From contig CACYDD010000087.1 of NCBI GenBank assembly GCA_902773065.1, positions 1 to 34,028 of the forward strand: 34,028 bases of DNA. Direction: 5' to 3'. The first letter of the stretch is position 1. Every line of letters begins with the position of its first letter. Under the pieces are notes generated by a model, which was given only the letters and a program-made list of their open reading frames with translations, ran no database searches and had not been told where the DNA came from. This DNA is from an uncultured Ruminococcus sp. Lineage in GTDB: Bacteria > Bacillota > Clostridia > Oscillospirales > Acutalibacteraceae. This document shows positions 221 to 32,529 of this stretch, in pieces. The translations under genes and the position numbers were made by a program.

Positions 221-1861
221 TCAACTGTCTTCGCTCATTTCGTCAAGCATACGGAAGATTTCTTCATAATCTGCGTCGCTTTTATCCGAAGCGAACGGAT
301 CTTCTTCTATAAAATCGGATACTTCATCAGTAACGGTTGTTTCTTCTTCATAAACTGTCTGAGGTTCATAGGAAGGCTGTGTTACATATGTATTGCTGGA
401 AATCACAGCTGATTCCTCTGCCGAAGAAGTTTTATCAGTGAGGGGAGAAGATACCGGTTGTGTGACTGACTCATAGGTCATGGGTGCAGGTTCAGCTTCT
501 GCGACTGATTCATAGGTCATAGGAGCAGGTTCTGTTTCTGCGAGTGATTCATAGGTCATAGGAGCAGGTTCAGCTTCTGCGACTGATTCATAGGTCATGG
601 GTGCAGGTTCTGTTTCTGCGAGTGATTCATAGGTCATGGGTGCAGGTTCTGTTTCCGGAAACGACTCATACCTCATAGGATCATATTGTGATTCATTATC
701 TGTTCCGGAGGTAATACGTTCCAGCTCACTGTCATCAATGGGAACAAGATTGAAATCGGCAACTGTTTCAGGAACATCTGTATTCAATACGGATGAATTT
801 TCATTTTTTTCCTTCATCAGATTTTGAAGATCAGTAAAATCATAATCTGTGTTGTTTTCCGCTTCATCTTCAAATTTTAGTTGACCCTTATAAATTTTTT
901 TCTTCTTGGGACGTTCTGTTTGTTGTCCGCGGGAACGGTCGGTTTTTTTAGCAGCAGGGGGTTCTTTTTTGTCACCGGTTGAAATAGAGCCGAGAAACTC
1001 AGGCTCTTCCAGATCTTCATCCTCCTCATATTCTGTAACGACTGCATTTTTTGCATTACTGGCAATAAATGCAATCACATAACCACAGAAAGCAAGGTCA
1101 ATAATACAGGTCAGGATTCTTGAAACAGTCGGCTCAACAACCAGAGTATCAATTCCTGTAGTTTCAGGGTCAACCGGATTGAACATTTTGATAATGATAT
1201 CCGATGTCGTGATCATGCTGCACATGAAATAGCAATAACCGTAAAGCGTGGTTCTTCTGACTGCTGTTTTCGGATTCAGTTCCGCAAAGAACATTGCCTG
1301 ATAGAACAGGAACAGCATCAAAAATGTTGTGGAAACAACATCAAACATCTCGGTTGCATGAATGGATACCTTGGAATATTCAATAAACAGAGAAATCAGT
1401 CTGCCGCAGCACCACAAGGGCAGTATCAGACTTGCAACAGGAAATTTTGTCATGCCGTTTTGTCCGGTAAAGGATATACAGGATTCATATATCATCACAA
1501 TGCCGCCTACAAGTCCTAAAAGGCATCCGAACAGACTTCCTGCCAGAGAATCTGATGATCCCAGCGAAAGCAATGAGATCACGCCGCTGCCGACCATGGC
1601 AACCGCTGCAATAAATCCGAAACCTGCCGCGGCTTTGCTTTTGGACGGTGAAGCCTCAATATCGATTTTTCTGTCTGTGATCAGAGTGATAAAGCCGATT
1701 GTAAACAAAAGCAGTAATGAAAGGATAAATACGGCACTGCAGATATCGGAATCAAGGAAGAAACCGTCTCCGTTGACATTGAAGCAAGTGTCACAGATCT
1801 TGGCAGCACCTCCGATAATGCCGAGAATGATCATCGGCAGCCAAAGCTTTTTGATTTTCAT
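221..1861 (-). CDS. polytopic membrane protein with a long acidic, repeat-containing cytoplasmic or extracellular tail (function unknown)
   Basis: This is a 546-aa ORF with AGGAG 8-9 nt upstream of the ATG at 1861. The N-terminal ~270 aa contain multiple hydrophobic helices. The C-terminal half is E/D/P/T-rich with 13-aa tandem repeats. Confidence 0.8.
   Translation of the reverse strand: MKIKKLWLPMIILGIIGGAAKICDTCFNVNGDGFFLDSDICSAVFILSLLLLFTIGFITLITDRKIDIEASPSKSKAAAGFGFIAAVAMVGSGVISLLSLGSSDSLAGSLFGCLLGLVGGIVMIYESCISFTGQNGMTKFPVASLILPLWCCGRLISLFIEYSKVSIHATEMFDVVSTTFLMLFLFYQAMFFAELNPKTAVRRTTLYGYCYFMCSMITTSDIIIKMFNPVDPETTGIDTLVVEPTVSRILTCIIDLAFCGYVIAFIASNAKNAVVTEYEEDEDLEEPEFLGSISTGDKKEPPAAKKTDRSRGQQTERPKKKKIYKGQLKFEDEAENNTDYDFTDLQNLMKEKNENSSVLNTDVPETVADFNLVPIDDSELERITSGTDNESQYDPMRYESFPETEPAPMTYESLAETEPAPMTYESVAEAEPAPMTYESLAETEPAPMTYESVAEAEPAPMTYESVTQPVSSPLTDKTSSAEESAVISSNTYVTQPSYEPQTVYEEETTVTDEVSDFIEEDPFASDKSDADYEEIFRMLDEMSEDS
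464..676 (-). repeat. in-frame 39-bp tandem repeat, about 5.4 copies (13-aa unit EPAPMTYES[LV]AE[TA])
   Basis: The core tcataggtcat recurs at 471, 510, 549, 588 and 627, with a degenerate copy at 666, giving an exact 39-nt period. Two sequence variants are mixed in a mosaic order. Confidence 0.9.
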
Positions 1862-3623: not shown

Positions 3624-3695
3624 CTCAGGATTGATACTTATGGTGTAGTATATATCTGCTAAAATAAATTTACATTAAAAAGGTTGAAGATATTT

Positions 3696-4793
3696 ATGAA
3701 AAAAAGACTATTGATTTCAATACTGTGTTTTTTGCTGATGGCAGGGTTGCCGCTTTTGTCGGCAGGCGGTCATATGGACGGAGAAGCTTTCACAGAGATG
3801 TTTGGAGCAGAAGAAACGGAAAGTGCAGAAACATCTGTGCAGAGCCAGACAACTAAAAAAGAAGAAAGTAAAGAAAATTCAAAGAGCGAAAGTAAGACAG
3901 AAAAATCACAGAATAGCGAAAATGATACCAAGCAAAAATCAGCTACCGATACATTTATCATTCTTGATACGGCAAGCGGAAAAACGGTTGAAGTGGGGGA
4001 CAGGGATTTTTGTATGGGTGCGCTTGCCTATGAAATGCCGCCTTCCTTTGAAAAAGAAGCCCTCAAAGCTCAGACGGTGGCACTTTATACCCATTTTTGC
4101 CGTATCAGGGAAAAACAGCGGAAAGAACCCGAAAAAGACCTGAAAGGGGCAGATTTTTCGGCAGACCTGAAAAAGGGAGAAATTTACCTCACAGATGAGG
4201 TTTTAAAAGAAAAGTGGGGGAGTCTGTATGATGAGAGCATAAAAAAAGTCCAAACAGCCGTTGATGAGGTATTCGGAGAAGTTCTGACAAGCGGCGGCGA
4301 GCTGATCGATGCCTGTTATCATGCGATTTCAAGCGGAACGACGGAAAATGCAGAGGATATTTTTGGATTTAAGTGTGATTATCTGAAAGCTGTCGCCAGC
4401 CCATGGGATACTGCCGCACCCGATTACATGACAAGTGCAGACTTTACCACAGCTGAATTCAAAGAAAAACTCAGCAGTTTCGGTATCAGCTTTTCGGGCA
4501 AAGCGGAGGATTATATCAAAAATATTTCCGCAACACCGTCAGGCTCTGTCAAAACGCTGAAAATATGTGGAAAAGAGCTGACAGGTTCGCAAGTGCGGCA
4601 GACGTTCGGCTTGCGGAGTGCTGCTTTTACCGTAAAATATGCAGGCGGAAAATTCACTTTTACTGTCAAAGGCTATGGTCATGGTGTCGGGCTCAGTCAG
4701 TACGGCGCACAGGGTATGGCTCAGCAAGGCTCAGACTACAAAGAAATCCTACAACACTACTACAGAGGGGTTCAATTAGGAATTAGGAGTTAG
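3696..4793 (+). CDS. spoIID: stage II sporulation protein D (SpoIID/LytB-domain lytic transglycosylase)
   Basis: The C-terminal motif GYGHGVGLSQYGAQGMAQQG is typical of SpoIID. An N-terminal signal/anchor follows the ATG at 3696 (MKKRLLISILCFLL). The track start at 3684 is a TTG directly abutting the AGG, so 3696 is preferred. Confidence 0.85.
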   Translation: MKKRLLISILCFLLMAGLPLLSAGGHMDGEAFTEMFGAEETESAETSVQSQTTKKEESKENSKSESKTEKSQNSENDTKQKSATDTFIILDTASGKTVEVGDRDFCMGALAYEMPPSFEKEALKAQTVALYTHFCRIREKQRKEPEKDLKGADFSADLKKGEIYLTDEVLKEKWGSLYDESIKKVQTAVDEVFGEVLTSGGELIDACYHAISSGTTENAEDIFGFKCDYLKAVASPWDTAAPDYMTSADFTTAEFKEKLSSFGISFSGKAEDYIKNISATPSGSVKTLKICGKELTGSQVRQTFGLRSAAFTVKYAGGKFTFTVKGYGHGVGLSQYGAQGMAQQGSDYKEILQHYYRGVQLGIRS

Positions 4794-4803
4794 GAATGAG
4801 GAA
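4776..4803 (+). repeat. heptanucleotide tandem array TTAGGAA TTAGGAG TTAGGAA TGAGGAA (overlaps the spoIID stop codon)
   Basis: There are four exact-period 7-nt units. The third unit supplies the spoIID TAG (4791..4793). TAGs at 4777 and 4784 fall in the other two frames. Confidence 0.85.
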
Positions 4804-4913
4804 TGGTTTTGTGAAAAAATCGATGCTTTACACAATGCAAACGGGCAATGAAGTTGATTGGAAAATTTTGATATGTTTGAAAAAATGAAAATAAATTTTG
4901 TGTAAAATAACAG

Positions 4914-5126: not shown

Positions 5127-5687
5127 ATGAAAACAATACAAGATTGTGCAAAATTATATGATACATTAATTGGAAACGAATATACACTTATTCTTGAGAA
5201 CGATATGCGAATTGTTTTTAATTTTGATAAAGGTAATTTCTTTCATTTAATAGGTTTACATAAATTGTCTGATGTCAATGAATTTTATATAGGTAACAGG
5301 AGAAAGTCAAAAAATCGGATATACAAAGAATTACTAAGCGGTATCATAGACGATAATAGATTAAGGTACAAAAAGGGTTATGATAAAATTATTACCAGGG
5401 TGGAAAATTTTGAGTATATCACAGATTTATTATGTTTTGATAAAAGTAATAAGTTGATTATAGATTTTGATATAAATCTTATTAACAGATTTGATTCTTT
5501 GCTAAGTGGTACGAAATATATTCTATACAAACAATTGAACAATGTCTATATTCATTTAACATTTGGACAAGGAAGAAAAATATATCCTGAAAGTTTTTTT
5601 GTGCATAACGGAAAAGATTATATTTCCGAACAGACATTAATTGAAATAAAAGATATTCAGATAAAACAACATATTGTGAAAATATAA
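5127..5687 (+). CDS. hypothetical protein, putative toxin; resembles PBECR-type (Barnase/EndoU/ColicinE5-D/RelE-like) nuclease domains (assignment from memory)
   Basis: This is a 186-aa ORF, markedly more AT-rich than its neighbours. The N-terminal block YDTLIGNEYTLILEN...FNFDKGNFFHLIGLHKL matches my recollection of the F-x-HL-x-GL-x-KL core of PBECR4-like proteins. It is followed by a tiny antitoxin-like ORF. Confidence 0.55.
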   Translation: MKTIQDCAKLYDTLIGNEYTLILENDMRIVFNFDKGNFFHLIGLHKLSDVNEFYIGNRRKSKNRIYKELLSGIIDDNRLRYKKGYDKIITRVENFEYITDLLCFDKSNKLIIDFDINLINRFDSLLSGTKYILYKQLNNVYIHLTFGQGRKIYPESFFVHNGKDYISEQTLIEIKDIQIKQHIVKI

Positions 5688-5919: not shown

Positions 5920-6420
5920 ATGGTGATGAACATGAAATATCAGATAACGGAAAAGCAAAAAGAAGAAATAGAACAGACACGCAAGAAAAACAAAAATAAG
6001 CAAATAGAAAGACGCTTGAAAGTATTATCGCTGAAGGCAGAAGGAGCCAGCTACAAAGAAATAATGGCTGCAACCGGATATAGTAAAGCAAATGTAGCAA
6101 AGATAGTTAAACTATATTTTGAAAAAGGCATAGAAAAAATTATAACAATTAAGTATGGAGGCAACCATCGTAATCTTAGTTACGAAGAAGAGGAACAGCT
6201 TCTGCAATTGTTTGTGAAGAAAGCTGAACAAGGACAAATCGTTGAAACCAAAGAAATAAAAGAAAAGTACGAACAAGCAGTAGGACATCCAATTGGAAGC
6301 GGACACATATACTATATTCTAAAAAGGCACGGTTGGCGAAAAATAATGCCGAGAAGCAGACATCCGAAAAAAGCAACACCGGAGGCGATTGAAGCCTCAA
6401 AAAAATTAAACGATTTGTAA
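5920..6420 (+). CDS. IS630-family transposase, N-terminal HTH part (orfA)
   Basis: The 166-aa ORF has helix-turn-helix-like segments (SYKEIMAATGYSKANVAKIVKLY) and a winged-helix part (HIYYILKRHGWRK). It stops at 6418..6420, just after an A7 run. Confidence 0.85.
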   Translation: MVMNMKYQITEKQKEEIEQTRKKNKNKQIERRLKVLSLKAEGASYKEIMAATGYSKANVAKIVKLYFEKGIEKIITIKYGGNHRNLSYEEEEQLLQLFVKKAEQGQIVETKEIKEKYEQAVGHPIGSGHIYYILKRHGWRKIMPRSRHPKKATPEAIEASKKLNDL

Positions 6421-6461
6421 AGGAAATACAAGAAATCAACAAAGATTCCACCGTTCGTTTA

Positions 6462-6965
6462 ATGTTTCAGGATGAGGCAGGATTCGGGCGTATCAACAAG
6501 CCTAAATACTGTTGGTGCAAAAAGGGATATCGTCCCTCTGTCCCATGTCATCATATAAGGGAATACAGATATGTTTATGGTGCAGTAGAACCACTCAGCG
6601 GAGAAAACTGCTTTCTTGTTATGCCTTATTGCAATACGGACTGTATGAATGTATTTCTTGCTCATCTTTCCAAATCCTATAAAGAGGATCAAATTGTGTT
6701 AGTATGCGATGGAGCTGCCTGGCATAAATCTAAAGGTTTAATTATTCCTGATAACATTCATATTATTTTTATCCCACCTTATACACCGGAAATGAATCCA
6801 ATTGAACAAATTTGGAAAGAAATACGAAAGATGGGTTTCAGAAATGAAGTATTCCAAACTCTCCAAAAGGTTATTGATCGCCTGTGTCAATCTATTCGTG
6901 CTTTATCTCATGATACTATTAAATCCATTACTGCAAGAGATTGGATTGTGTCTATTTTTAATTAG
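6462..6965 (+). CDS. IS630-family transposase, DDE catalytic part (orfB; frame is open from 6393)
   Basis: The DDE_3 hallmarks are present: FQDEAGFG, LVCDGAAWHKS and PPYTPEMNPIEQIWKEIR. This reading frame is open upstream to 6393, so it overlaps orfA by 28 nt in the -1 frame. Confidence 0.85.
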   Translation: MFQDEAGFGRINKPKYCWCKKGYRPSVPCHHIREYRYVYGAVEPLSGENCFLVMPYCNTDCMNVFLAHLSKSYKEDQIVLVCDGAAWHKSKGLIIPDNIHIIFIPPYTPEMNPIEQIWKEIRKMGFRNEVFQTLQKVIDRLCQSIRALSHDTIKSITARDWIVSIFN

Positions 6966-8802: not shown

Positions 8803-8837
8803 TTCACAACTCCTAATTCCTAATTCCTAACTCCTAA
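8803..8837 (-). repeat. heptanucleotide tandem array TTAGGAG TTAGGAA TTAGGAA TTAGGAG TTGTGAA, 3 nt after the tex stop codon
   Basis: The minus strand reads TAA GAG then five 7-nt units. It uses the same unit, and the same orientation relative to the upstream gene, as the array at 4776..4803. Confidence 0.85.
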
Positions 8838-8840
8838 CTC

Positions 8841-10979
8841 TTACTTCATGGTGAGGGAGATTCTGCCCTTTTCGGCATCAACGGCGAGAACTCTGACTTT
8901 GATGACATCGCCGACATTGAGGACATCGGAGGGGTGTTTGATTCGCTTCTCGCTGATTTGTGAGATGTGGACAAGTCCGTCCTGATGAACACCGATATCA
9001 ACAAATGCACCGAAATCTATGACATTTCTGACAGTGCCTTTGAGTTCCATGCCCTCTTTGAGGTCTTTGATATCAAGCACATCGGTACGCAGGAGCGGCG
9101 GAGGAAGCTCATCACGGGGGTCTCTGCCGGGCTTGGTAAGCTCTGTGATGATATCTTCAAGGGTAGGTCTGCCGATACCGAGTTTTTCGGCGGCATTGTC
9201 AAGACCGATGGCGGCGGCTTTCCGGTTCAGTTCGGAAAGACTGCCGTTTCTGATATCGTCGGTGGTATAGCCGCACAGCTCTAAAAGTTGTTTTGCGGCT
9301 GTATAGGATTCGGGGTGAACAGCGGTATTGTCAAGCGGATCAGCACTTTCGGGCACTCTTAAAAAGCCTGCACACTGTTCAAATGCTTTCGGTCCGAGTT
9401 TTGATACTTTTTTCAGTTCTGCACGGGATTTGAACGCACCATTTTCTTCTCGGTAGGCTACAATATTTCCCGAAACAGTTTTGCTGATGCCTGCCACTCT
9501 GGAAAGCAGGGCAGGGGAAGCAGTATTCAGGTCTGCGCCAACAGTGTTAACGCAGTCCTCAACAACACCGTCAAGGGCTTCACTGAGCCGTTTTTGCGGC
9601 ATATCATGCTGATACTGTCCCACACCGATCGCTTTCGGTTCGATTTTCACAAGCTCTGCAAGCGGATCCTGTAATCTTCTTGCGATAGACACTGCACTTC
9701 TGAGCGTCAGGTCAAGGTCGGGCATTTCAGCGGCGGCAAGCTTGGAAGCGGAATAAACCGATGCGCCTGCTTCGCTGACAACCATGTAGGAAACCTTATT
9801 GTCAATTTCAGAGATACATTCGGCAGTAAACATTTCTGTTTCTTTTGAAGCCGTGCCATTGCCGATGGCAATAATTTCTGCGTTGTATTTTTTGATCATG
9901 TTTTTGAGGGTGGTTTTGGATTTCTGAATCTGTGCCTGACTGTGTGTCGGGTAGATAACAGCTGTGTCAAGCACTCTGCCTGTCGGGTCAACAACAGCAA
10001 GCTTACAGCCTGTGCGGTAGCCGGGGTCAAGTCCTATTGCGGTATGACCTTTTACAGGCGGCTGCATGAGAAGATTTCTCAGATTCAGTGCAAACAGGGC
10101 AATCGCCTGCTCGTCAGCCTTTTCGGTCAGCTCGTTTCTGATCTCACGCTCCAGTGAGGGGAAGATCAGTCTTGCATAAGCATCCTCGCAGGCTGCCTTA
10201 ACTGTCTGTGAAAATTCATTATCGGATTTGACAAGAAGTCTGTTTACAATATTCAGGCATTTTTCGGGCGGAATATCGATCGTGACTTTCAGGAAATCCT
10301 CCCGTTCGCCCCTGTCAATAGCAAGCACTCTGTGACCTGCTATTTTTGAAACAGGCTCGCCAAAATCATAGTAAAGTCTGTAAACACTGTCTTTGTCGGG
10401 GTCAGCGGCTTTGGAGCGGAGAAATGCATTCAGGCGGATAATATTTTTCAGCCTTTTGCGGATCTCTGCATTGTCAGAAACATTTTCCGCAATGATATCC
10501 ATTGCACCCTGAATGGCATCCTCTTCTGTTTCAACACCCTTTTCGGGGTCAATATATTTCTGTGCTTCTGTGCTAAGATTTCCGTTTTCCTGTGCAAAAA
10601 TGAGGTCGGCAAGCGGTTCAAGACCCTTTTCCTTTGCAACAGAGGCTCTTGTTTTTCTTTTCGGGCGGTAGGGGCGGTAGATATCCTCGATTTCGGTAAG
10701 AACAGACGCTTTTTCTAAAGCGGCGGCAATTTCGTCATTCATTTTGCCAAGACCGTCGATCAGATTGTAAACTTCCTCACGGCGTTTATCCAGACCTCTT
10801 AAATATTCAAGACGTTCGCTGATGGAGCGAATCGTCTGGTCATCAAGTGTACCGTGCATTTCCTTGCGGTATCTTGCGATAAAGGGAATGGTATTTCCCT
10901 CATCAAGAAGATTGATGATATTCTGTGCATATTCTTCTTTGATCTTAAATTCCTCTACAAGTTTTGCTGCGTAATTCAT
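8841..10979 (-). CDS. tex: Tex-like RNA-binding transcription accessory protein (YqgF/HHH/S1 domains)
   Basis: The 712-aa ORF has the N-terminal motif TIPFIARYRKE and the central YqgF-like segment GLDPGYRTGCKLAVVD. The C-terminal S1 domain reads GMELKGTVRNVIDFGAFVDIGVHQDGLVHISQ. Confidence 0.9.
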   Translation of the reverse strand: MNYAAKLVEEFKIKEEYAQNIINLLDEGNTIPFIARYRKEMHGTLDDQTIRSISERLEYLRGLDKRREEVYNLIDGLGKMNDEIAAALEKASVLTEIEDIYRPYRPKRKTRASVAKEKGLEPLADLIFAQENGNLSTEAQKYIDPEKGVETEEDAIQGAMDIIAENVSDNAEIRKRLKNIIRLNAFLRSKAADPDKDSVYRLYYDFGEPVSKIAGHRVLAIDRGEREDFLKVTIDIPPEKCLNIVNRLLVKSDNEFSQTVKAACEDAYARLIFPSLEREIRNELTEKADEQAIALFALNLRNLLMQPPVKGHTAIGLDPGYRTGCKLAVVDPTGRVLDTAVIYPTHSQAQIQKSKTTLKNMIKKYNAEIIAIGNGTASKETEMFTAECISEIDNKVSYMVVSEAGASVYSASKLAAAEMPDLDLTLRSAVSIARRLQDPLAELVKIEPKAIGVGQYQHDMPQKRLSEALDGVVEDCVNTVGADLNTASPALLSRVAGISKTVSGNIVAYREENGAFKSRAELKKVSKLGPKAFEQCAGFLRVPESADPLDNTAVHPESYTAAKQLLELCGYTTDDIRNGSLSELNRKAAAIGLDNAAEKLGIGRPTLEDIITELTKPGRDPRDELPPPLLRTDVLDIKDLKEGMELKGTVRNVIDFGAFVDIGVHQDGLVHISQISEKRIKHPSDVLNVGDVIKVRVLAVDAEKGRISLTMK

Positions 10980-11038: not shown

Positions 11039-11066
11039 ATACTAACCACTAATCACTAATCACTAA
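11039..11066 (-). repeat. heptanucleotide tandem array TTAGTGA TTAGTGA TTAGTGG TTAGTAT beginning in the stop codon of the 232-aa gene
   Basis: The minus strand reads TAT TAG TGA TTA GTG ATT AGT GGT TAG TAT. The first unit contains the TAG stop (11065..11063). TAG and TGA recur every 7 nt. Confidence 0.8.
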
Positions 11067-11761
11067 TAATCGAACGGGAAGGTTTCTTCCTTGCCGAGGG
11101 CTTGTACAGCGAGAAGATATTTGCCGCTTGTTTTGCCGTTTCTGACTTCATAGCTGCCGTTATTCACTGATGCAGTGGAAACACACTGAGCGATGATACC
11201 GTTTTGTTTATAAATATCCACATAATGGTAACCGGGGAGATGGTCGGGCGCAGGTTCAAAGATACCTGTTGTGACATATTCCACAGCGGTAAGTGTTTCA
11301 CCCCGGTTGATGGTAGCGTCCTTGATTATGTAAGCATTGTAGGTGGGAGAAACGATTTGTATGATGTTTATGACGAGAAGGAACATTCCGATAGTGGAAA
11401 TGAGTACTAAGGATATTTTACCGTTTTCCTGAACCTTGTATTTTTTGACTGTCTTGTTGCTTATGATCAGACCGATGATCATCATAGCAACAGGAAGTAA
11501 TATTACAAATCCGAAATAAGAAGTGCAGATCGTGTTGTCGATGATGATCTCAAACTTTAAAAGAGTGTGGGCTAAATTCATCAGCACAACGATACAGAGC
11601 AGCCACATCCCGATATCATAAATGCGTCTGCCTTTGACATAGTCTTTGTCCTTTTTCAGCTGTGTTTTCGAGTCCTGCAAGGGAGCAGAAGCAGTATCGG
11701 GGGCGGTTGTTTCAGGTTCTGCGGCGGTGTTGATCGTTTTGTTATTTTTTTCTTCTGACAC
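11063..11761 (-). CDS. membrane protein, function unknown
   Basis: The 232-aa ORF starts with GTG at 11761, with AAGGAGG 8 nt upstream. A polar N-terminus is followed by three predicted TM helices and a C-terminal soluble domain. Confidence 0.7.
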   Translation of the reverse strand: MSEEKNNKTINTAAEPETTAPDTASAPLQDSKTQLKKDKDYVKGRRIYDIGMWLLCIVVLMNLAHTLLKFEIIIDNTICTSYFGFVILLPVAMMIIGLIISNKTVKKYKVQENGKISLVLISTIGMFLLVINIIQIVSPTYNAYIIKDATINRGETLTAVEYVTTGIFEPAPDHLPGYHYVDIYKQNGIIAQCVSTASVNNGSYEVRNGKTSGKYLLAVQALGKEETFPFDY

Positions 11762-25834: not shown

Positions 25835-25910
25835 TGGTGGGAACAACAGGGCTCGAACCTGTGACCCTCTGCTTGTAAGGCAGATGCTCTCCCAGCTGAG
25901 CTATGCTCCC
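25835..25910 (-). tRNA. tRNA-Val (anticodon UAC), CCA encoded
   Basis: The reverse complement is GGGAGCATAGCTCAGCTGGGAGAGCATCTGCCTTACAAGCAGAGGGTCACAGGTTCGAGCCCTGTTGTTCCCACCA. It folds into a cloverleaf with a 7-bp acceptor stem, the anticodon loop CTTACAA, and a GTTCGAG T-loop; total length is 76 nt. Confidence 0.92.
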
Positions 25911-27495: not shown

Positions 27496-28458
27496 ATGAG
27501 TTTTACGATTCTGGGAACAGGTAAGGCAGTTCCTGAGTATGTGATGAAAAATGATGAGCTTTCAACAATGGTTGAAACTAATGACGAATGGATTCGTACA
27601 AGAACAGGTATAGAGGAACGCCATATCGCCAAAAGCGAAACAATTACTCAGCTTTGCGTTGAAGCAGCAAACAACGCACTTGAAAATGCAGGGGTAAAAC
27701 CTGAAGAACTTGACCTGATTATCTGCTCTACCATGAGGGGAGAAAATATCACTCCGTCTCAAGGCTGTATGATACAGAAAGAAATAGGTGCTTCTTGCCC
27801 TGCTTTTGATGTCAATGCGGCTTGCTCGGGCTTCATTTATGCCCTCGATATTGCGGCAGGCTATTTTGAAAGAAAAAGAGTTAAAAAAGCACTGATCGTT
27901 TCGATGGATAATCTGTCCAATATTACTGACTGGACAGACCGTTCCACCTGCGTACTTTTCGGTGACGGCGGTGCAGCAGCAGTTCTCGGAGAGGGCAATG
28001 ACCTCCTGTCAATTCACCTTACCGCTGTCGGCAATGACGATGCGATCAGAATACCGCACGGTACAAATTCTTCACCGTTCTATGAGCATGAGGAAGAAAA
28101 AGCTGTTCTGCATATGGCAGGCAACGAAGTATATAAATTTGCAACTGCTGCTATGGCAAACGGCATTAAAAAAGCTGTTGCGGATGCAGGTCTGGAACAG
28201 AGTGACGTTGACTGCGTTGTACCGCACCAGGCTAATATCAGAATCATCAATACTGCTGCGAAAAACCTTGACATTCCGAGAGAAAAATTCTTCTGCAATG
28301 TTCAGCATTACGGAAATACTTCCTCAGGAAGTGTACCGATCGCTCTTGACGAAGCAAACCGCTCAGGTGTACTGAAAAAAGGCGACATTGTGGCACTGTG
28401 TGCTTTTGGCGGAGGACTTACAACAGGCAGCTGCGTAATACGCTGGAACAAGGATTAA
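27496..28458 (+). CDS. fabH: 3-oxoacyl-ACP synthase III
   Basis: The catalytic Cys is in AACSGF, the His in PHQAN, and the Asn in YGNTSSGS. GGAGG lies 8 nt upstream. Confidence 0.92.
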   Translation: MSFTILGTGKAVPEYVMKNDELSTMVETNDEWIRTRTGIEERHIAKSETITQLCVEAANNALENAGVKPEELDLIICSTMRGENITPSQGCMIQKEIGASCPAFDVNAACSGFIYALDIAAGYFERKRVKKALIVSMDNLSNITDWTDRSTCVLFGDGGAAAVLGEGNDLLSIHLTAVGNDDAIRIPHGTNSSPFYEHEEEKAVLHMAGNEVYKFATAAMANGIKKAVADAGLEQSDVDCVVPHQANIRIINTAAKNLDIPREKFFCNVQHYGNTSSGSVPIALDEANRSGVLKKGDIVALCAFGGGLTTGSCVIRWNKD

Positions 28459-28479
28459 TGAGGAATTAGGAATGAGGAA
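28459..28479 (+). repeat. heptanucleotide tandem array TGAGGAA TTAGGAA TGAGGAA directly after the fabH stop codon
   Basis: The array starts at the nucleotide after the TAA (28456..28458). The 17-mer at 28466..28482 is identical to 4790..4806 (TTAGGAATGAGGAATGG). Confidence 0.8.
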
Positions 28480-28540
28480 TGGATGCTGATTCCAAACTTC
28501 ATTCGGGAATTCATTGACTACTGACATTGGAGGAAAAAAT

Positions 28541-29457: not shown

Positions 29458-30204
29458 ATGTTTGAATTAACCGGTAAAACCGCAATTATAACAGGTGCAT
29501 CAAGAGGAATCGGCAAGGCGATTGCGCTGAAATATGCCGATCTTGGTGCGAATATTGCATTTCTGCATTTTGGTGACGGCGAAAATGCGGTGCAAACTGA
29601 AAAAGAACTTGCAGAAAAGGGCGTTAAGGTAAAGGCTTACGAATGTAATGTTGCTGATGCGGAAGCTTCTGCGAAAGTTGTTGAGGAAATTATTGCCGAA
29701 TTCGGTGAGGTTCATATCCTTGTCAACAATGCAGGTATTGTCAGAGATACGCTGATTCTTTCCATGAAGGAAGCGGATTTCGATGCGGTTATCAATGTCA
29801 ACCTTAAAGGCACATTCAATATGACAAAGGCGATTTATAAGCACTTTATGAAAAAGCGCAGAGGAAGAATCATCAACATTTCCTCTATTATTGGCATCAC
29901 AGGCAATGCAGGGCAGGCAAATTATGCTTCTGCAAAGGCAGGTATCATCGGTCTGACAAAATCTGTCGCAAAAGAACTTGGTTCAAGAAATGTCACAGCC
30001 AATGCGATCGCTCCGGGCTTCATCAAAACAGATATGACAGACGGTATGCCCGAAAAGGCGAGAGAAGCGGCTCTTGCAGCAATTCCGCTGAAACGTATGG
30101 GTACAGTGGAGGATATTGCTAATACAGCAGTATTCCTTGCAAGTGACGAGGCTTCCTACATTACCGGCGAAATCATCAAAGTTGACGGCGGAATGGCAAT
30201 ATAA
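29458..30204 (+). CDS. fabG: 3-oxoacyl-ACP reductase
   Basis: The SDR motifs are TGASRGIG, NNAG and YASAKAG. Confidence 0.92.
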   Translation: MFELTGKTAIITGASRGIGKAIALKYADLGANIAFLHFGDGENAVQTEKELAEKGVKVKAYECNVADAEASAKVVEEIIAEFGEVHILVNNAGIVRDTLILSMKEADFDAVINVNLKGTFNMTKAIYKHFMKKRRGRIINISSIIGITGNAGQANYASAKAGIIGLTKSVAKELGSRNVTANAIAPGFIKTDMTDGMPEKAREAALAAIPLKRMGTVEDIANTAVFLASDEASYITGEIIKVDGGMAI

Positions 30205-30222
30205 TGCATAATGCATAATGAA
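30202..30222 (+). repeat. heptanucleotide tandem array TAATGCA TAATGCA TAATGAA beginning with the fabG stop codon
   Basis: TAA occurs at 30202 (the fabG stop), 30209 and 30216, which covers all three frames. Confidence 0.75.
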
Positions 30223-32049: not shown

Positions 32050-32478
32050 ATGAATAAAGAAGAAATTATGCAGGTGATCCCTCACAGAAATTCCATGCTT
32101 CTGATCGATGAAGCAACCAAAACAGGCGAAACAACCTGCGAGGGCAAAAAATACATCAAGGGCGACGAATGGTTTCTTGACGGTCATTTTCCCGGAAATC
32201 CCGTTGTTCCCGGCGTGATCCTCTGCGAAATGATGGCACAGGCAAGTGCTGTGATCATTTCGGAGGTTTCAGCGGCAAGTACTCCTTATTTTACGGGAAT
32301 TGAAAAAGCAAAATTCAGAAATAAGGTTCTGCCCGGCGATACTCTCGAAATCAAATGCGAACTGACCGGACAAAAGCGTAACTTTTACTTTATCAAAGGC
32401 AAGGGCTATGTCAACGGAAAGCTCAGTGTTTCTGCGGAATTCTCTTTTGCACTTGTACCAAGAGAAAGCGCGCAATAA
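32050..32478 (+). CDS. fabZ: 3-hydroxyacyl-ACP dehydratase
   Basis: The motifs are IPHRNSMLLIDE and LDGHFPGNPVVPGVILCEMMAQ. Confidence 0.92.
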   Translation: MNKEEIMQVIPHRNSMLLIDEATKTGETTCEGKKYIKGDEWFLDGHFPGNPVVPGVILCEMMAQASAVIISEVSAASTPYFTGIEKAKFRNKVLPGDTLEIKCELTGQKRNFYFIKGKGYVNGKLSVSAEFSFALVPRESAQ

Positions 32479-32510
32479 TTTTCCATTTTCCATTTTCAAT
32501 TATTAATTTG
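32476..32510 (+). repeat. 7-nt periodic array TAATTTT CCATTTT CCATTTT CAATTAT TAATTTG beginning with the fabZ stop codon
   Basis: Two units are exact and three are degenerate, all with a strict 7-nt period, in the fabZ-accC spacer. Confidence 0.6.
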
Positions 32511-32529
32511 AACGAGGGGGAGTGATCGA

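What the first reader, a model, noticed from the sequence alone, without database searches (positions are those of the whole stretch)
4776..4803. Stop-codon-anchored heptanucleotide arrays: the TTAGGAR family occurs three times, always oriented with the upstream gene
Seen directly in the sequence: TTAGGAA TTAGGAG TTAGGAA TGAGGAA TGG at 4776..4806. The third unit provides the spoIID TAG stop at 4791, and the two preceding units put TAG into the other two frames. The same unit recurs on the minus strand 3 nt after the tex stop (8837..8803: TTAGGAG TTAGGAA TTAGGAA TTAGGAG TTGTGAA). It recurs again at the nucleotide after the fabH stop (28459..28479: TGAGGAA TTAGGAA TGAGGAA). The 17-mer TTAGGAATGAGGAATGG is identical at 4790..4806 and 28466..28482. 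In all three cases the array has the polarity of the gene it follows. Because 7 is not a multiple of 3, the embedded TAG/TGA rotates through reading frames, and each unit also carries a Shine-Dalgarno-like AGGAG/AGGAA core. Possible roles, all inference, are a three-frame translational backstop, a ribosome parking or standby site, an RNA-binding protein site, or a 3'-end processing signal. The only heptamer-repeat class I know of is the STRR repeats of heterocystous cyanobacteria. I am not aware of a described stop-codon-anchored class in Firmicutes.
Basis: partly seen in the sequence, partly recalled or inferred. Interest (0 to 1): 0.72.

Follow-up and report, generated by a model that had tools for sequence, protein, structure and literature searches.

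The report
Heptamer microsatellites anchored at stop codons
The TTAGGAR repeats are real, fast-changing 7-base microsatellites that grow out of the stop codon of the gene they follow, a placement rule that holds across many bacterial phyla and phages, was partly described in 2015 for other repeat units, and still has no known cause.

Summary
The window holds six period-7 arrays: three TTAGGAR, plus TTAGTGA, ATAATGC and ATTTTCC. Each starts at or within 3 nt of a co-oriented stop codon. Independent assemblies carry them, with whole-unit gain or loss between 99.8%-identical strains. A 93% relative lacks one array, and its sequence shows that array arose by amplifying the heptamer holding the stop codon. 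About 600 kb from related Clostridia contain no period-7 arrays, so this is a heptamer-rich lineage.

The rule is not specific to Firmicutes. Of 111 TTAGGAR arrays in Cyanobacteria, Bacteroidota, Firmicutes and other phyla, 58 abut a co-oriented stop and 2 an anti-oriented one. In viral contigs the counts are 78 and 15. Other units show the same polarity: the mRNA strand is G-rich and C-poor.

Best reading: slippage-driven heptanucleotide microsatellites that nucleate on the stop codon. The three-frame stops and Shine-Dalgarno-like cores are by-products. No dedicated function is shown, and the cause of the strand polarity is unknown. Rehm et al. 2015 already described stop-proximal, sense-strand heptamer repeats in Xanthomonas and Nostoc, so this is a new member of a known kind.

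The parts
4776..4806 (+). TTAGGAA TTAGGAG TTAGGAA TGAGGAA TGG. Units 1-2 encode the last residues of the SpoIID-domain protein and unit 3 supplies its TAG stop (4791-4793).
   Evidence: identical in the independent assemblies L204 and L212
8803..8844 (-). (G)TAAGAG, a variant first unit holding the Tex TAA stop (8843-8841), followed by TTAGGAG TTAGGAA TTAGGAA TTAGGAG TTGTGAA. Distal units are degenerate.
   Evidence: Four units in the window and L002, three in L001, L003 and L205. The 93% relative L204 has TGAGAGT TAAGAGT TGAGAGT in the same register.
28459..28482 (+). TGAGGAA TTAGGAA TGAGGAA TGG, starting at the base after the FabH TAA stop, inside the fabH-fabD spacer. The last unit pairs with a downstream inverted partial copy.
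   Evidence: Four units in L216, and only a degenerate trace in L214. Fold z = -2.55.
11039..11066 (-). TTAGTGA TTAGTGA TTAGTGG TTAGTAT. The first unit supplies the TAG stop (11065-11063) of the 232-aa ORF 11063-11761.
   Evidence: Absent in L204, where the stop is followed directly by the conserved GTCAG...CTGAC hairpin.
30201..30221 (+). ATAATGC ATAATGC ATAATGA. The first unit holds the TAA stop (30202-30204) of the FabG-type reductase, in the fabG-fabF spacer.
   Evidence: Present with point substitutions in L214 and L216, and absent in the 88-89% relatives.
32478..32512 (+). ATTTTCC ATTTTCC ATTTTCA ATTATTA ATTTGAA. It starts at the last base of the FabZ TAA stop and runs up to the accC ribosome-binding site. 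This unit has no stop triplet and is pyrimidine-rich.
   Evidence: Present in L214. The 88-89% relatives have only 5 nt between fabZ and accC.

Best explanation
The arrays are heptanucleotide microsatellites, that is, long simple-sequence repeats of the 5-11-nt class. They belong to an uncultured Clostridia lineage whose nearest named relative is an Acutalibacteraceae MAG, and whose genome is unusually rich in period-7 repeats.

Each array nucleates in place by tandem duplication of the heptamer that contains, or immediately follows, the stop codon of a gene. It then gains and loses whole units by slipped-strand mispairing. A 7-nt indel is lethal inside a reading frame. It is harmless once the first copy has supplied the stop, so arrays persist exactly at gene ends.

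Only arrays whose mRNA-sense strand is G-rich and C-poor accumulate. This polarity is shown; its cause is not. I infer that a filter at the level of transcription or RNA is responsible.

The stop triplets in all three frames and the AGGAG/AGGAA cores are by-products of the nucleating sequence (stop codon plus purine-rich context). They do not indicate a designed signal. The arrays probably have no gene-specific regulatory role.
For: Shown:
- Six period-7 arrays lie on stop codons in 34 kb, with no arrays of period 6, 8 or 9. There are zero period-7 arrays in 598 kb of Tex-orthologue loci from related Clostridia, and none after any of the 77 Tex stops that could be read among those 80 loci.
- Whole units are gained or lost between strains that are 99.7-99.9% identical, and one contig breaks inside an array. 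L216 has 4 units at the FabH site and L214 has none.
- Birth in place: L204 has TAT TAG AG|GTCAG where the window has TAT TAG TGATTAGTGATTAGTGGTTAGTATACA|GTCAG. At the Tex site, arrays with different units in the two strains share a register that begins with the stop codon.
- Across phyla, the spacer between the real stop and the perfect core is usually a variant unit containing that stop. TAG accounts for 38% of stops at array-bearing gene ends and 20% elsewhere.
- Stops supplied by unit 1, 2 or 3 number 35, 19 and 10 when the genome and viral sets are combined, not the 1:1:1 expected from random placement.
- Perfect-core copy numbers fall off geometrically: 78, 36, 15, 3.
- In protein-selected loci from the clade, 11 of 12 period-7 arrays abut a stop, whatever the unit.
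- Polarity: 58 co-oriented against 2 anti-oriented in genomes, with a null of 6-14% per orientation; 78 against 15 in viral contigs. For 39 arrays with other units, the sense strand has G>C in 32 and G<C in 5. In ordinary post-stop sequence 333 genes have G>C and 241 have G<C (58% of those that differ).
- Literature: heptamers are the commonest long-SSR class and are attributed to polymerase slippage (Mrazek 2007, as cited in PMC4679880 and PMC4692102). The same placement rule was seen for GGGAATC and GGGGAYT repeats (PMC4692102).
Against: - A purely neutral model of slippage plus tolerance does not predict the very strong strand polarity. The reverse complement also carries stops in all three frames and could nucleate on TAA stops equally well.
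- It also does not predict that unrelated loci and phyla share one dominant unit, nor the identical 17-mer at two window sites.
- The sequence after an array is less structured than ordinary post-stop sequence. So arrays are not simply filling a slot between a stop and a terminator hairpin.
- The rule also holds in phages, which would be compatible with an RNA-level function.
- No experiment or transcript data were available.
Confidence: 0.6

Rival explanations
1. The arrays are a selected RNA element acting on translation at the gene end. They would serve as a three-frame stop or insulator that catches read-through or frameshifted ribosomes. Alternatively they would be a tract of Shine-Dalgarno-like sites that holds post-termination 30S subunits.
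For: - Strict sense orientation and a start at the stop codon in genomes and phages.
- Outside cyanobacteria, 14 of 14 units carry a stop triplet on the sense strand, against 6 of 14 on the antisense strand.
- The arrays are predicted to be unpaired and therefore accessible.
- AGGAG/AGGAA cores are visible directly in the sequence.
Against: - The arrays are not conserved at orthologous sites, and their copy number varies within a species.
- Arrays without stop triplets or Shine-Dalgarno cores obey the same placement rule: ATTTTCC here, and GGGAATC in Xanthomonas (PMC4692102).
- The next in-frame stop lies 21 nt downstream and is the weak codon TAG.
- Both orientations supply three-frame stops, so a backstop role does not explain the polarity.
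- Bacteroidota show the rule just as strongly, 18 to 0. From general knowledge, they make little use of Shine-Dalgarno pairing.
- The genes involved are functionally unrelated.
Confidence: 0.15
2. The arrays are non-B DNA or R-loop-prone tracts. G-rich, purine-rich nascent RNA becomes free of ribosomes at the stop codon and re-anneals to the template. This would drive repeat instability there, and possibly RNA polymerase pausing or termination.
For: - The sense strand is G>C and purine-rich for all unit families.
- The arrays begin exactly where translation ends.
- The rule holds in every phylum tested and in phages.
- Rehm et al. found that transcripts start or stop at G4-forming repeats more often than at control repeats (PMC4692102).
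Against: - (UUAGGAG)x4 has no predicted G-quadruplex or other structure: 0.0 kcal/mol, against -8.4 for (GGGAAUC)x4.
- TTAGGAR contains only GG doublets.
- About a fifth of arrays are antisense and lie near start codons.
- ATTTTCC is pyrimidine-rich.
- The idea rests on inference, with no direct data.
Confidence: 0.12
3. The arrays are binding sites for a ring-shaped RNA-binding regulator of the HutP or TRAP type, which reads NAG triplets at fixed spacing. (UAG-N4)x3 is the HutP recognition pattern, from my knowledge of the B. subtilis hut system.
For: The TTAGGAR and TTAGTGA arrays present UAG or GAG every 7 nt, 3-4 times.
Against: - ATAATGC and ATTTTCC arrays lack UAG but obey the same placement rule.
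- The same arrays occur in phyla and phages not known to have HutP.
- No terminator adjoins the arrays for such a protein to control.
- The genes are unrelated, and the sites are not conserved.
- No hutP-like gene was seen in the window. This was not searched systematically.
Confidence: 0.05
4. The arrays are an assembly or sequencing artefact.
For: One contig ends inside an array.
Against: - The same arrays appear in independent assemblies from several runs and two other studies.
- They also occur in isolate and complete genomes of other phyla.
Confidence: 0.01

Closest known systems
Stop-proximal G-rich heptamer repeats of Xanthomonas (GGGAATC) and Nostoc (GGGGAYT), Rehm et al. 2015, PLoS One (PMC4692102)
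   Same: - Tandem 7-nt units, typically about 4 copies, and mostly intergenic.
- Located within 50 bp of, or overlapping, the stop codon, with the G-rich strand being the sense strand.
- A minority class lies antisense just upstream of start codons.
- Rare between divergent genes.
- Copy number differs between close relatives.
- Associated genes are functionally random, and the function is unknown.
   Different: - The unit is TTAGGAR, along with TTAGTGA, ATAATGM and ATTTTCC.
- No G-quadruplex can form.
- The units carry stop triplets, and the array usually begins with the stop codon itself.
- The hosts are Clostridia and many other phyla plus phages, a breadth not reported there.
Long simple-sequence repeats with 5-11-nt units (Mrazek, Guo and Shah 2007, PNAS; as summarised in PMC4679880)
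   Same: - Heptamers are the dominant period.
- Abundance is lineage-specific.
- Location is non-coding.
- Origin is attributed to polymerase slippage.
   Different: That survey, as cited, did not report anchoring on stop codons or sense-strand polarity. Clostridia and Bacteroidales from gut and rumen metagenomes were not among its repeat-rich genomes.
TAACTGA direct repeats of marine Beggiatoaceae, Cyanobacteria and Bacteroidetes (MacGregor 2015, PMC4679880)
   Same: - Short intergenic arrays (2-6 copies) of a heptamer containing stop triplets.
- One dominant unit per genome.
- A patchy distribution across phyla.
   Different: Those arrays lie a few nucleotides upstream of start codons, in forward orientation. 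The arrays here lie at stop codons, with a median of about 113 nt to the next start.
STRR repeats of heterocystous cyanobacteria (from my own knowledge: Mazel et al. 1990, units CCCCAGT, TTGGTCA and CAACAGT)
   Same: Tandem heptamers dispersed in intergenic DNA. TTAGGAR arrays are themselves abundant in Nostocales.
   Different: The units and the host phylum differ. The cyanobacterial loci sampled here hold many unit families, with weaker stop anchoring: 20 of 49 for TTAGGAR and 29 of 126 for other units.

Membership tests
Heptanucleotide long simple-sequence repeats (microsatellite class) | Head-to-tail copies of a 5-11-nt unit, longer than chance allows | tested here: met
   TRF rows of period 7; 8 pattern matches against 0.19 expected
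Heptanucleotide long simple-sequence repeats (microsatellite class) | Whole-unit copy-number variation between close strains (slippage) | tested here: met
   4 versus 3 units at the Tex site between 99.8%-identical contigs; 3 versus 4 units versus none at the FabH site
Heptanucleotide long simple-sequence repeats (microsatellite class) | Lineage-specific abundance with period 7 dominant | tested here: met
   12-18 arrays per 100 kb in the window against 0 in 598 kb of relatives; no arrays of period 6, 8 or 9
Stop-proximal sense-strand heptamer repeats (Rehm et al. 2015) | Within 50 bp of, or overlapping, the stop codon, with the G-rich strand as the sense strand | tested here: met
   6 of 6 in the window; 58 versus 2; G>C in 32 versus 5
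Stop-proximal sense-strand heptamer repeats (Rehm et al. 2015) | Under-represented between divergent genes | tested here: met
   3 of 99 classified arrays; 6 of 127 in viral contigs
Stop-proximal sense-strand heptamer repeats (Rehm et al. 2015) | G-quadruplex-forming unit (G3 or longer tracts) | tested here: not met
   (UUAGGAG)x4 has an MFE of 0.0 with G-quadruplexes allowed, against -8.4 for (GGGAAUC)x4
Stop-proximal sense-strand heptamer repeats (Rehm et al. 2015) | Preference for four units | tested here: inconclusive
   Window arrays have 3-5 units. Perfect cores are geometrically distributed (78, 36, 15, 3), but the search required at least 3 units.
Cyanobacterial STRR | Canonical units (CCCCAGT, TTGGTCA, CAACAGT) in heterocystous cyanobacteria | tested here: not met
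   The unit is TTAGGAR and the host is a Clostridia lineage
TAACTGA repeats (MacGregor 2015) | Forward orientation within a few nucleotides upstream of a start codon | tested here: not met
   The window arrays end 18-320 nt before the next start (for the array after SpoIID). Only the ATTTTCC array, which runs up to the accC ribosome-binding site, comes within about 20 nt of a start; the others are 55 nt or more away. The median distance across loci is about 113 nt.
HutP-type antiterminator site | At least 3 UAG triplets separated by 4 nt | tested here: met
   The TTAGGAR and TTAGTGA arrays fit by sequence. The motif definition comes from my own knowledge.
HutP-type antiterminator site | Overlaps a terminator in the leader of a regulated operon, with a hutP gene present | tested here: not met
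   No terminator-like site adjoins any array. The arrays follow unrelated genes. Presence of hutP in the whole genome could not be tested.
Phase-variation contingency SSR | A change in unit number switches a gene on or off (repeat inside the reading frame or promoter) | tested here: not met
   The arrays lie at or after the stop. The observed unit loss leaves the Tex protein identical.
Any Rfam RNA family | Match at the gathering threshold | tested here: not met
   The only hit in the window is a tRNA

The most novel reading that the evidence does not exclude
In bacteria and their phages generally, heptamer microsatellites nucleate on stop codons and accumulate only with the G-rich strand as the mRNA sense strand. 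The proposed reason is that the first ribosome-free nucleotides of a transcript are a hotspot for a strand-specific instability coupled to transcription, such as R-loop formation or RNA polymerase uncoupling. On this reading the arrays would be a genomic footprint of where translation-transcription coupling ends. Alternatively, they could be a widespread and unrecognised 3'-UTR element read by the ribosome.
Probability: 0.15. Interest if true: 0.75.

Novelty: new member of a known kind. Interest (0 to 1): 0.5.

Why it matters
- **Annotation:** these arrays define, and sometimes rewrite, the last codons and the stop of ordinary housekeeping genes. They also break metagenome assemblies, as one contig here shows.
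- **Strain typing:** they are ready-made markers for uncultured gut and rumen Clostridia and Bacteroidales.
- **Biology:** the placement rule has extreme strand polarity (58 to 2), holds across phyla and in phages, and applies to units that cannot form G-quadruplexes. That removes the only explanation offered so far (G4 formation). It points to an unexplained link between the end of translation and repeat instability or 3'-UTR function. This can be tested in culturable array-rich organisms such as Nostoc and Xanthomonas.

Tried and rejected
- **Rfam, gathering thresholds:** only a tRNA.
- **Terminator scan:** no terminator-like site adjoins any array.
- **RNA folding:** arrays are unpaired and z-scores unremarkable, except in the FabH spacer.
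- **G-quadruplex explanation:** rejected for these units.
- **Stop-to-hairpin slot idea:** it fits two window sites but fails in general, because sequence after arrays is less structured than ordinary post-stop sequence.
- **Internal growth polarity:** none found; both array edges are sharp.
- **Conservation at the Tex orthologous site:** none among the 77 readable Tex stops in 80 loci.
- **tRNA control** (do arrays also follow non-coding genes?): only 12 tRNAs were found in 2.1 Mb, and 0 of 12 had arrays, so it is inconclusive.
- **Exact look-up of FabD:** not on record; an earlier attempt had wrong coordinates.
- **Cluster look-up for organism names:** returned none.
- **Literature search for the TTAGGAR repeat strings:** no relevant paper.
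- **STRR placement literature:** not retrievable from the library.
- **Rho-loading (rut/anti-rut) explanation for the polarity:** set aside, because the polarity is equally strong in cyanobacteria (20 to 1), which from general knowledge lack Rho.
- **Shine-Dalgarno-based explanations:** set aside as general causes, because Bacteroidota show 18 to 0.
Full report
**1. The observation**

- 4776-4803 (+) reads TTAGGAA TTAGGAG TTAGGAA TGAGGAA, then TGG. Its third unit supplies the TAG stop of ORF 3684-4793.
- 8837-8803 (-) reads TTAGGAG TTAGGAA TTAGGAA TTAGGAG TTGTGAA and starts 3 nt after the TAA stop of ORF 8841-10979.
- 28459-28479 (+) reads TGAGGAA TTAGGAA TGAGGAA and starts at the base after the stop of ORF 27496-28458.

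The gene names hold: a SpoIID domain, Tex domains and FabH domains. The shared 17-mer occurs exactly twice. A two-unit degenerate pattern matches 8 times against 0.19 expected. Tandem Repeats Finder reports all three arrays.

On reading them, each also sits on a stop codon:
- TTAGTGA x4 at 11066-11039 (-), whose first unit is the TAG stop of a 232-aa ORF.
- ATAATGC x3 at 30201-30221 (+), whose first unit holds the TAA stop of the FabG-type reductase.
- An ATTTTCC-type array at 32478-32512 (+), which starts at the last base of the FabZ stop.

So 6 of 32 probable genes end in a period-7 array. The window has no arrays of period 6, 8 or 9. Rfam finds nothing but a tRNA.

**2. The arrays are real, and they mutate like microsatellites**

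Contigs from other sequencing runs that encode the identical Tex protein are 99.7-99.9% identical to the window. They carry the Tex array with either four units (the window, and L002, whose contig ends inside the array) or three units (L001, L003, L205). The difference is a clean 7-nt unit. The SpoIID array is identical in two assemblies from a different study.

At the FabH site the window has three units. A relative whose FabF is 96% identical (L216) has four. The 97% relative (L214) has only a degenerate trace. The ATAATGC array is shared by all three with point substitutions. Relatives at 88-89% FabF identity have short, unrelated spacers with no arrays, and only 5 nt between fabZ and accC.

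**3. The arrays are born on the stop codon**

L204, a strain 93% identical over the Tex region, is the key comparison.
- After the 232-aa ORF it reads TAT TAG AG|GTCAG..., with no array. The window reads TAT TAG TGATTAGTGATTAGTGGTTAGTATACA|GTCAG.... The window array is therefore an amplification of the heptamer that contains the stop, inserted between the stop and a conserved hairpin.
- After Tex, L204 has TGAGAGT TAAGAGT TGAGAGT. The window has TAAGAGT TAGGAGT TAGGAAT TAGGAAT TAGGAGT TGTGAAT. The units differ, but the register is the same and in both it begins with the stop codon.

**4. This is a heptamer-rich lineage, not a conserved site**

Tex orthologues in 80 loci from metagenomes (57-71% amino-acid identity) were examined. 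None of the 77 whose Tex stop could be read has an array after it. Those 598 kb contain no period-7 array of three or more copies, against 12-18 per 100 kb in the window. In protein-selected loci from the window's own clade, 11 of 12 period-7 arrays abut a stop, whatever the unit: TKAGGAR, TTAGTGA, ATAATGM/TGAATAA, ATAAATT or ATTTTCC. The nearest named FabF relative (80% identity) is an Acutalibacteraceae MAG.

**5. The rule is general**

These came from Nostocales and other Cyanobacteria, Bacteroidota, Clostridia and Negativicutes, Verrucomicrobiota, CPR bacteria and an actinomycete, and included isolates and complete genomes.

Of 111 arrays with enough flanking sequence, 58 start within -21 to +10 nt of the stop of a co-oriented ORF. 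Only 2 do so for an ORF on the opposite strand. Random placement in non-ORF space gives 6-14% per orientation. The result is significant separately in Firmicutes, Bacteroidota, Cyanobacteria and the remaining phyla. The control is fair, because the reverse complement (YTCCTAA) also carries a stop in all three frames.

With greedy gene calls:
- 40 arrays are sense arrays between co-directional genes. The median gap is 4 nt to the upstream stop and 113 nt to the next start.
- 34 lie between convergent genes. The median gap is 6 nt to the co-oriented stop and 126 nt to the other.
- 22 are antisense and tend to lie about 20 nt upstream of a start codon.
- 3 lie between divergent genes.

Viral contigs behave the same way: 78 of 127 are co-oriented and stop-adjacent, 15 are anti-oriented, and the null is 19%.

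The junction sequences show that when the real stop precedes the perfect core, the short spacer is usually a variant unit holding that stop (TAAgag|, TGAggag|, TAAggag|). TAG is the stop in 38% of array-bearing gene ends and in 20% of the others. When the array itself supplies the stop, it is unit 1, 2 or 3 in 35, 19 and 10 cases, not 1:1:1.

**6. A general strand polarity**

For 39 stop-adjacent arrays of other units, which were not used to select the loci, the sense strand has G>C in 32 and G<C in 5. It is purine-rich in 30 and purine-poor in 9. Outside cyanobacteria, all 14 units carry a stop triplet on the sense strand, against 6 of 14 on the antisense strand. In ordinary post-stop sequence from the same loci, 333 genes have G>C and 241 have G<C, which is 58% of those that differ.

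**7. What the arrays are not**

- No terminator-like hairpin adjoins any window array.
- The arrays are predicted to be unpaired. The exception is the FabH spacer, where the last unit pairs with a downstream inverted partial copy.
- Across loci, the 45 nt after an array are less structured than ordinary post-stop sequence.
- (UUAGGAG)x4 cannot form a G-quadruplex, whereas the Xanthomonas unit can.
- Perfect-core copy numbers fall off geometrically (78, 36, 15, 3...), and both array edges are sharp.
- A control asking whether arrays also follow tRNA genes had too few tRNAs to decide (0 of 12).

**8. What is already known**

Heptamers are the commonest class of long simple-sequence repeats in prokaryotes and are attributed to polymerase slippage (Mrazek 2007, as summarised in PMC4679880).

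Rehm et al. 2015 (PMC4692102) described GGGAATC repeats in Xanthomonas and GGGGAYT repeats in Nostoc. [quoted passage not shown] They are rare between divergent genes, vary between close relatives and are associated with random genes. The authors linked a four-unit preference to G-quadruplex formation and found no function.

MacGregor 2015 (PMC4679880) described TAACTGA arrays just upstream of start codons. A Nostoc preprint reports modest reporter effects for arrays near start codons. I found nothing on TTAGGAR arrays, or on this rule in Clostridia, Bacteroidales or phages.

**9. Interpretation**

Shown:
- These are period-7 microsatellites.
- They mutate by whole units.
- They are lineage-specific.
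- They nucleate on the stop-containing heptamer.
- They are placed under a polar, stop-anchored rule that holds across phyla and in phages and does not depend on G-quadruplex potential.

Inferred:
- They persist at gene ends because a 7-nt indel is only harmless once a stop has been read.
- The three-frame stops and Shine-Dalgarno-like cores are inherited from the nucleating sequence and are not selected.
- The G-rich-sense polarity reflects a filter at the level of transcription or RNA, whose nature is unknown.

Rho loading cannot be the general cause, because the polarity is equally strong in cyanobacteria, which from general knowledge lack Rho. Shine-Dalgarno pairing cannot be either, because Bacteroidota show 18 to 0.

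The main weakness of the neutral reading is that it does not by itself explain the polarity or the recurrence of one unit. This leaves real room for an RNA-level function or an R-loop-type mechanism.

**10. Verdict**

This is a new member (new units, new hosts, no G4 potential) of the known kind "stop-proximal heptameric simple-sequence repeats". The open question is why such repeats are anchored to stop codons with a fixed strand polarity.

Noticed in passing
window 5920-6965 (+): There are two adjacent ORFs with HTH_23/28/29/33 and DDE_3 domains, which looks like an IS630-type insertion sequence. It is present in the window and in several Logan contigs but absent from the otherwise collinear strain L204. 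In some strains the HTH ORF is 105 aa and in others 166 aa.
   Followed up: partly
window 464-680 (inside ORF 221-1861, minus strand): This is a tandem repeat of 39 nt (4.9 copies, 90% match), also scored as a 117-nt repeat. Both periods are multiples of three, so it is probably a coding repeat of 13 residues.
   Followed up: no
window about 5104 (23 nt upstream of ORF 5127-5687, a PBECR4-domain protein): Seven of the ten contigs returned for this protein, from different runs, begin exactly 23 nt upstream of the gene. This suggests a recurrent assembly breakpoint, and so strain heterogeneity or a repeat boundary, between the SpoIID array region and this gene.
   Followed up: no
L216 12183-12377 (fabZ-accC spacer); compare window 32479-32529: The 96% relative carries an insertion of about 150 nt in the spacer where the window has the ATTTTCC array. 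The 88-89% relatives have only 5 nt between fabZ and accC. Intergenic spacers of the fab operon have expanded repeatedly in this clade.
   Followed up: partly
window 28459-28530; L216 and L214 fabH-fabD spacers: A hairpin is kept in all three strains although its sequence differs: GGAATGAGG...CTTCATTC in the window, GGAATGAAG...CTTCATTCC in L216, and TTCGGAAT...ATTCCGAA in L214. In the window the 5' arm of the hairpin is the last array unit. The window fold has z = -2.55.
   Followed up: partly
L122 (Acutalibacteraceae MAG, 8.2-kb contig) and L013 (Selenomonadaceae MAG): These loci hold four to six separate period-7 arrays within 8 kb, with several unit variants (TTAGGAG, TGAGGAG, TAAGGAA, CTAGGAA, CTAGCTA). 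The density is far above that of the window.
   Followed up: no
L217 (ERZ28655160 scaffold_5465): Several fab and acc genes (fabD, fabZ, accC, accD) are split or shortened compared with the near-identical L216. This indicates either a low-quality assembly or a strain accumulating frameshifts.
   Followed up: no
window 25838-25910 (-): A single tRNA gene is the only Rfam hit in the window, at 69.6 bits.
   Followed up: no
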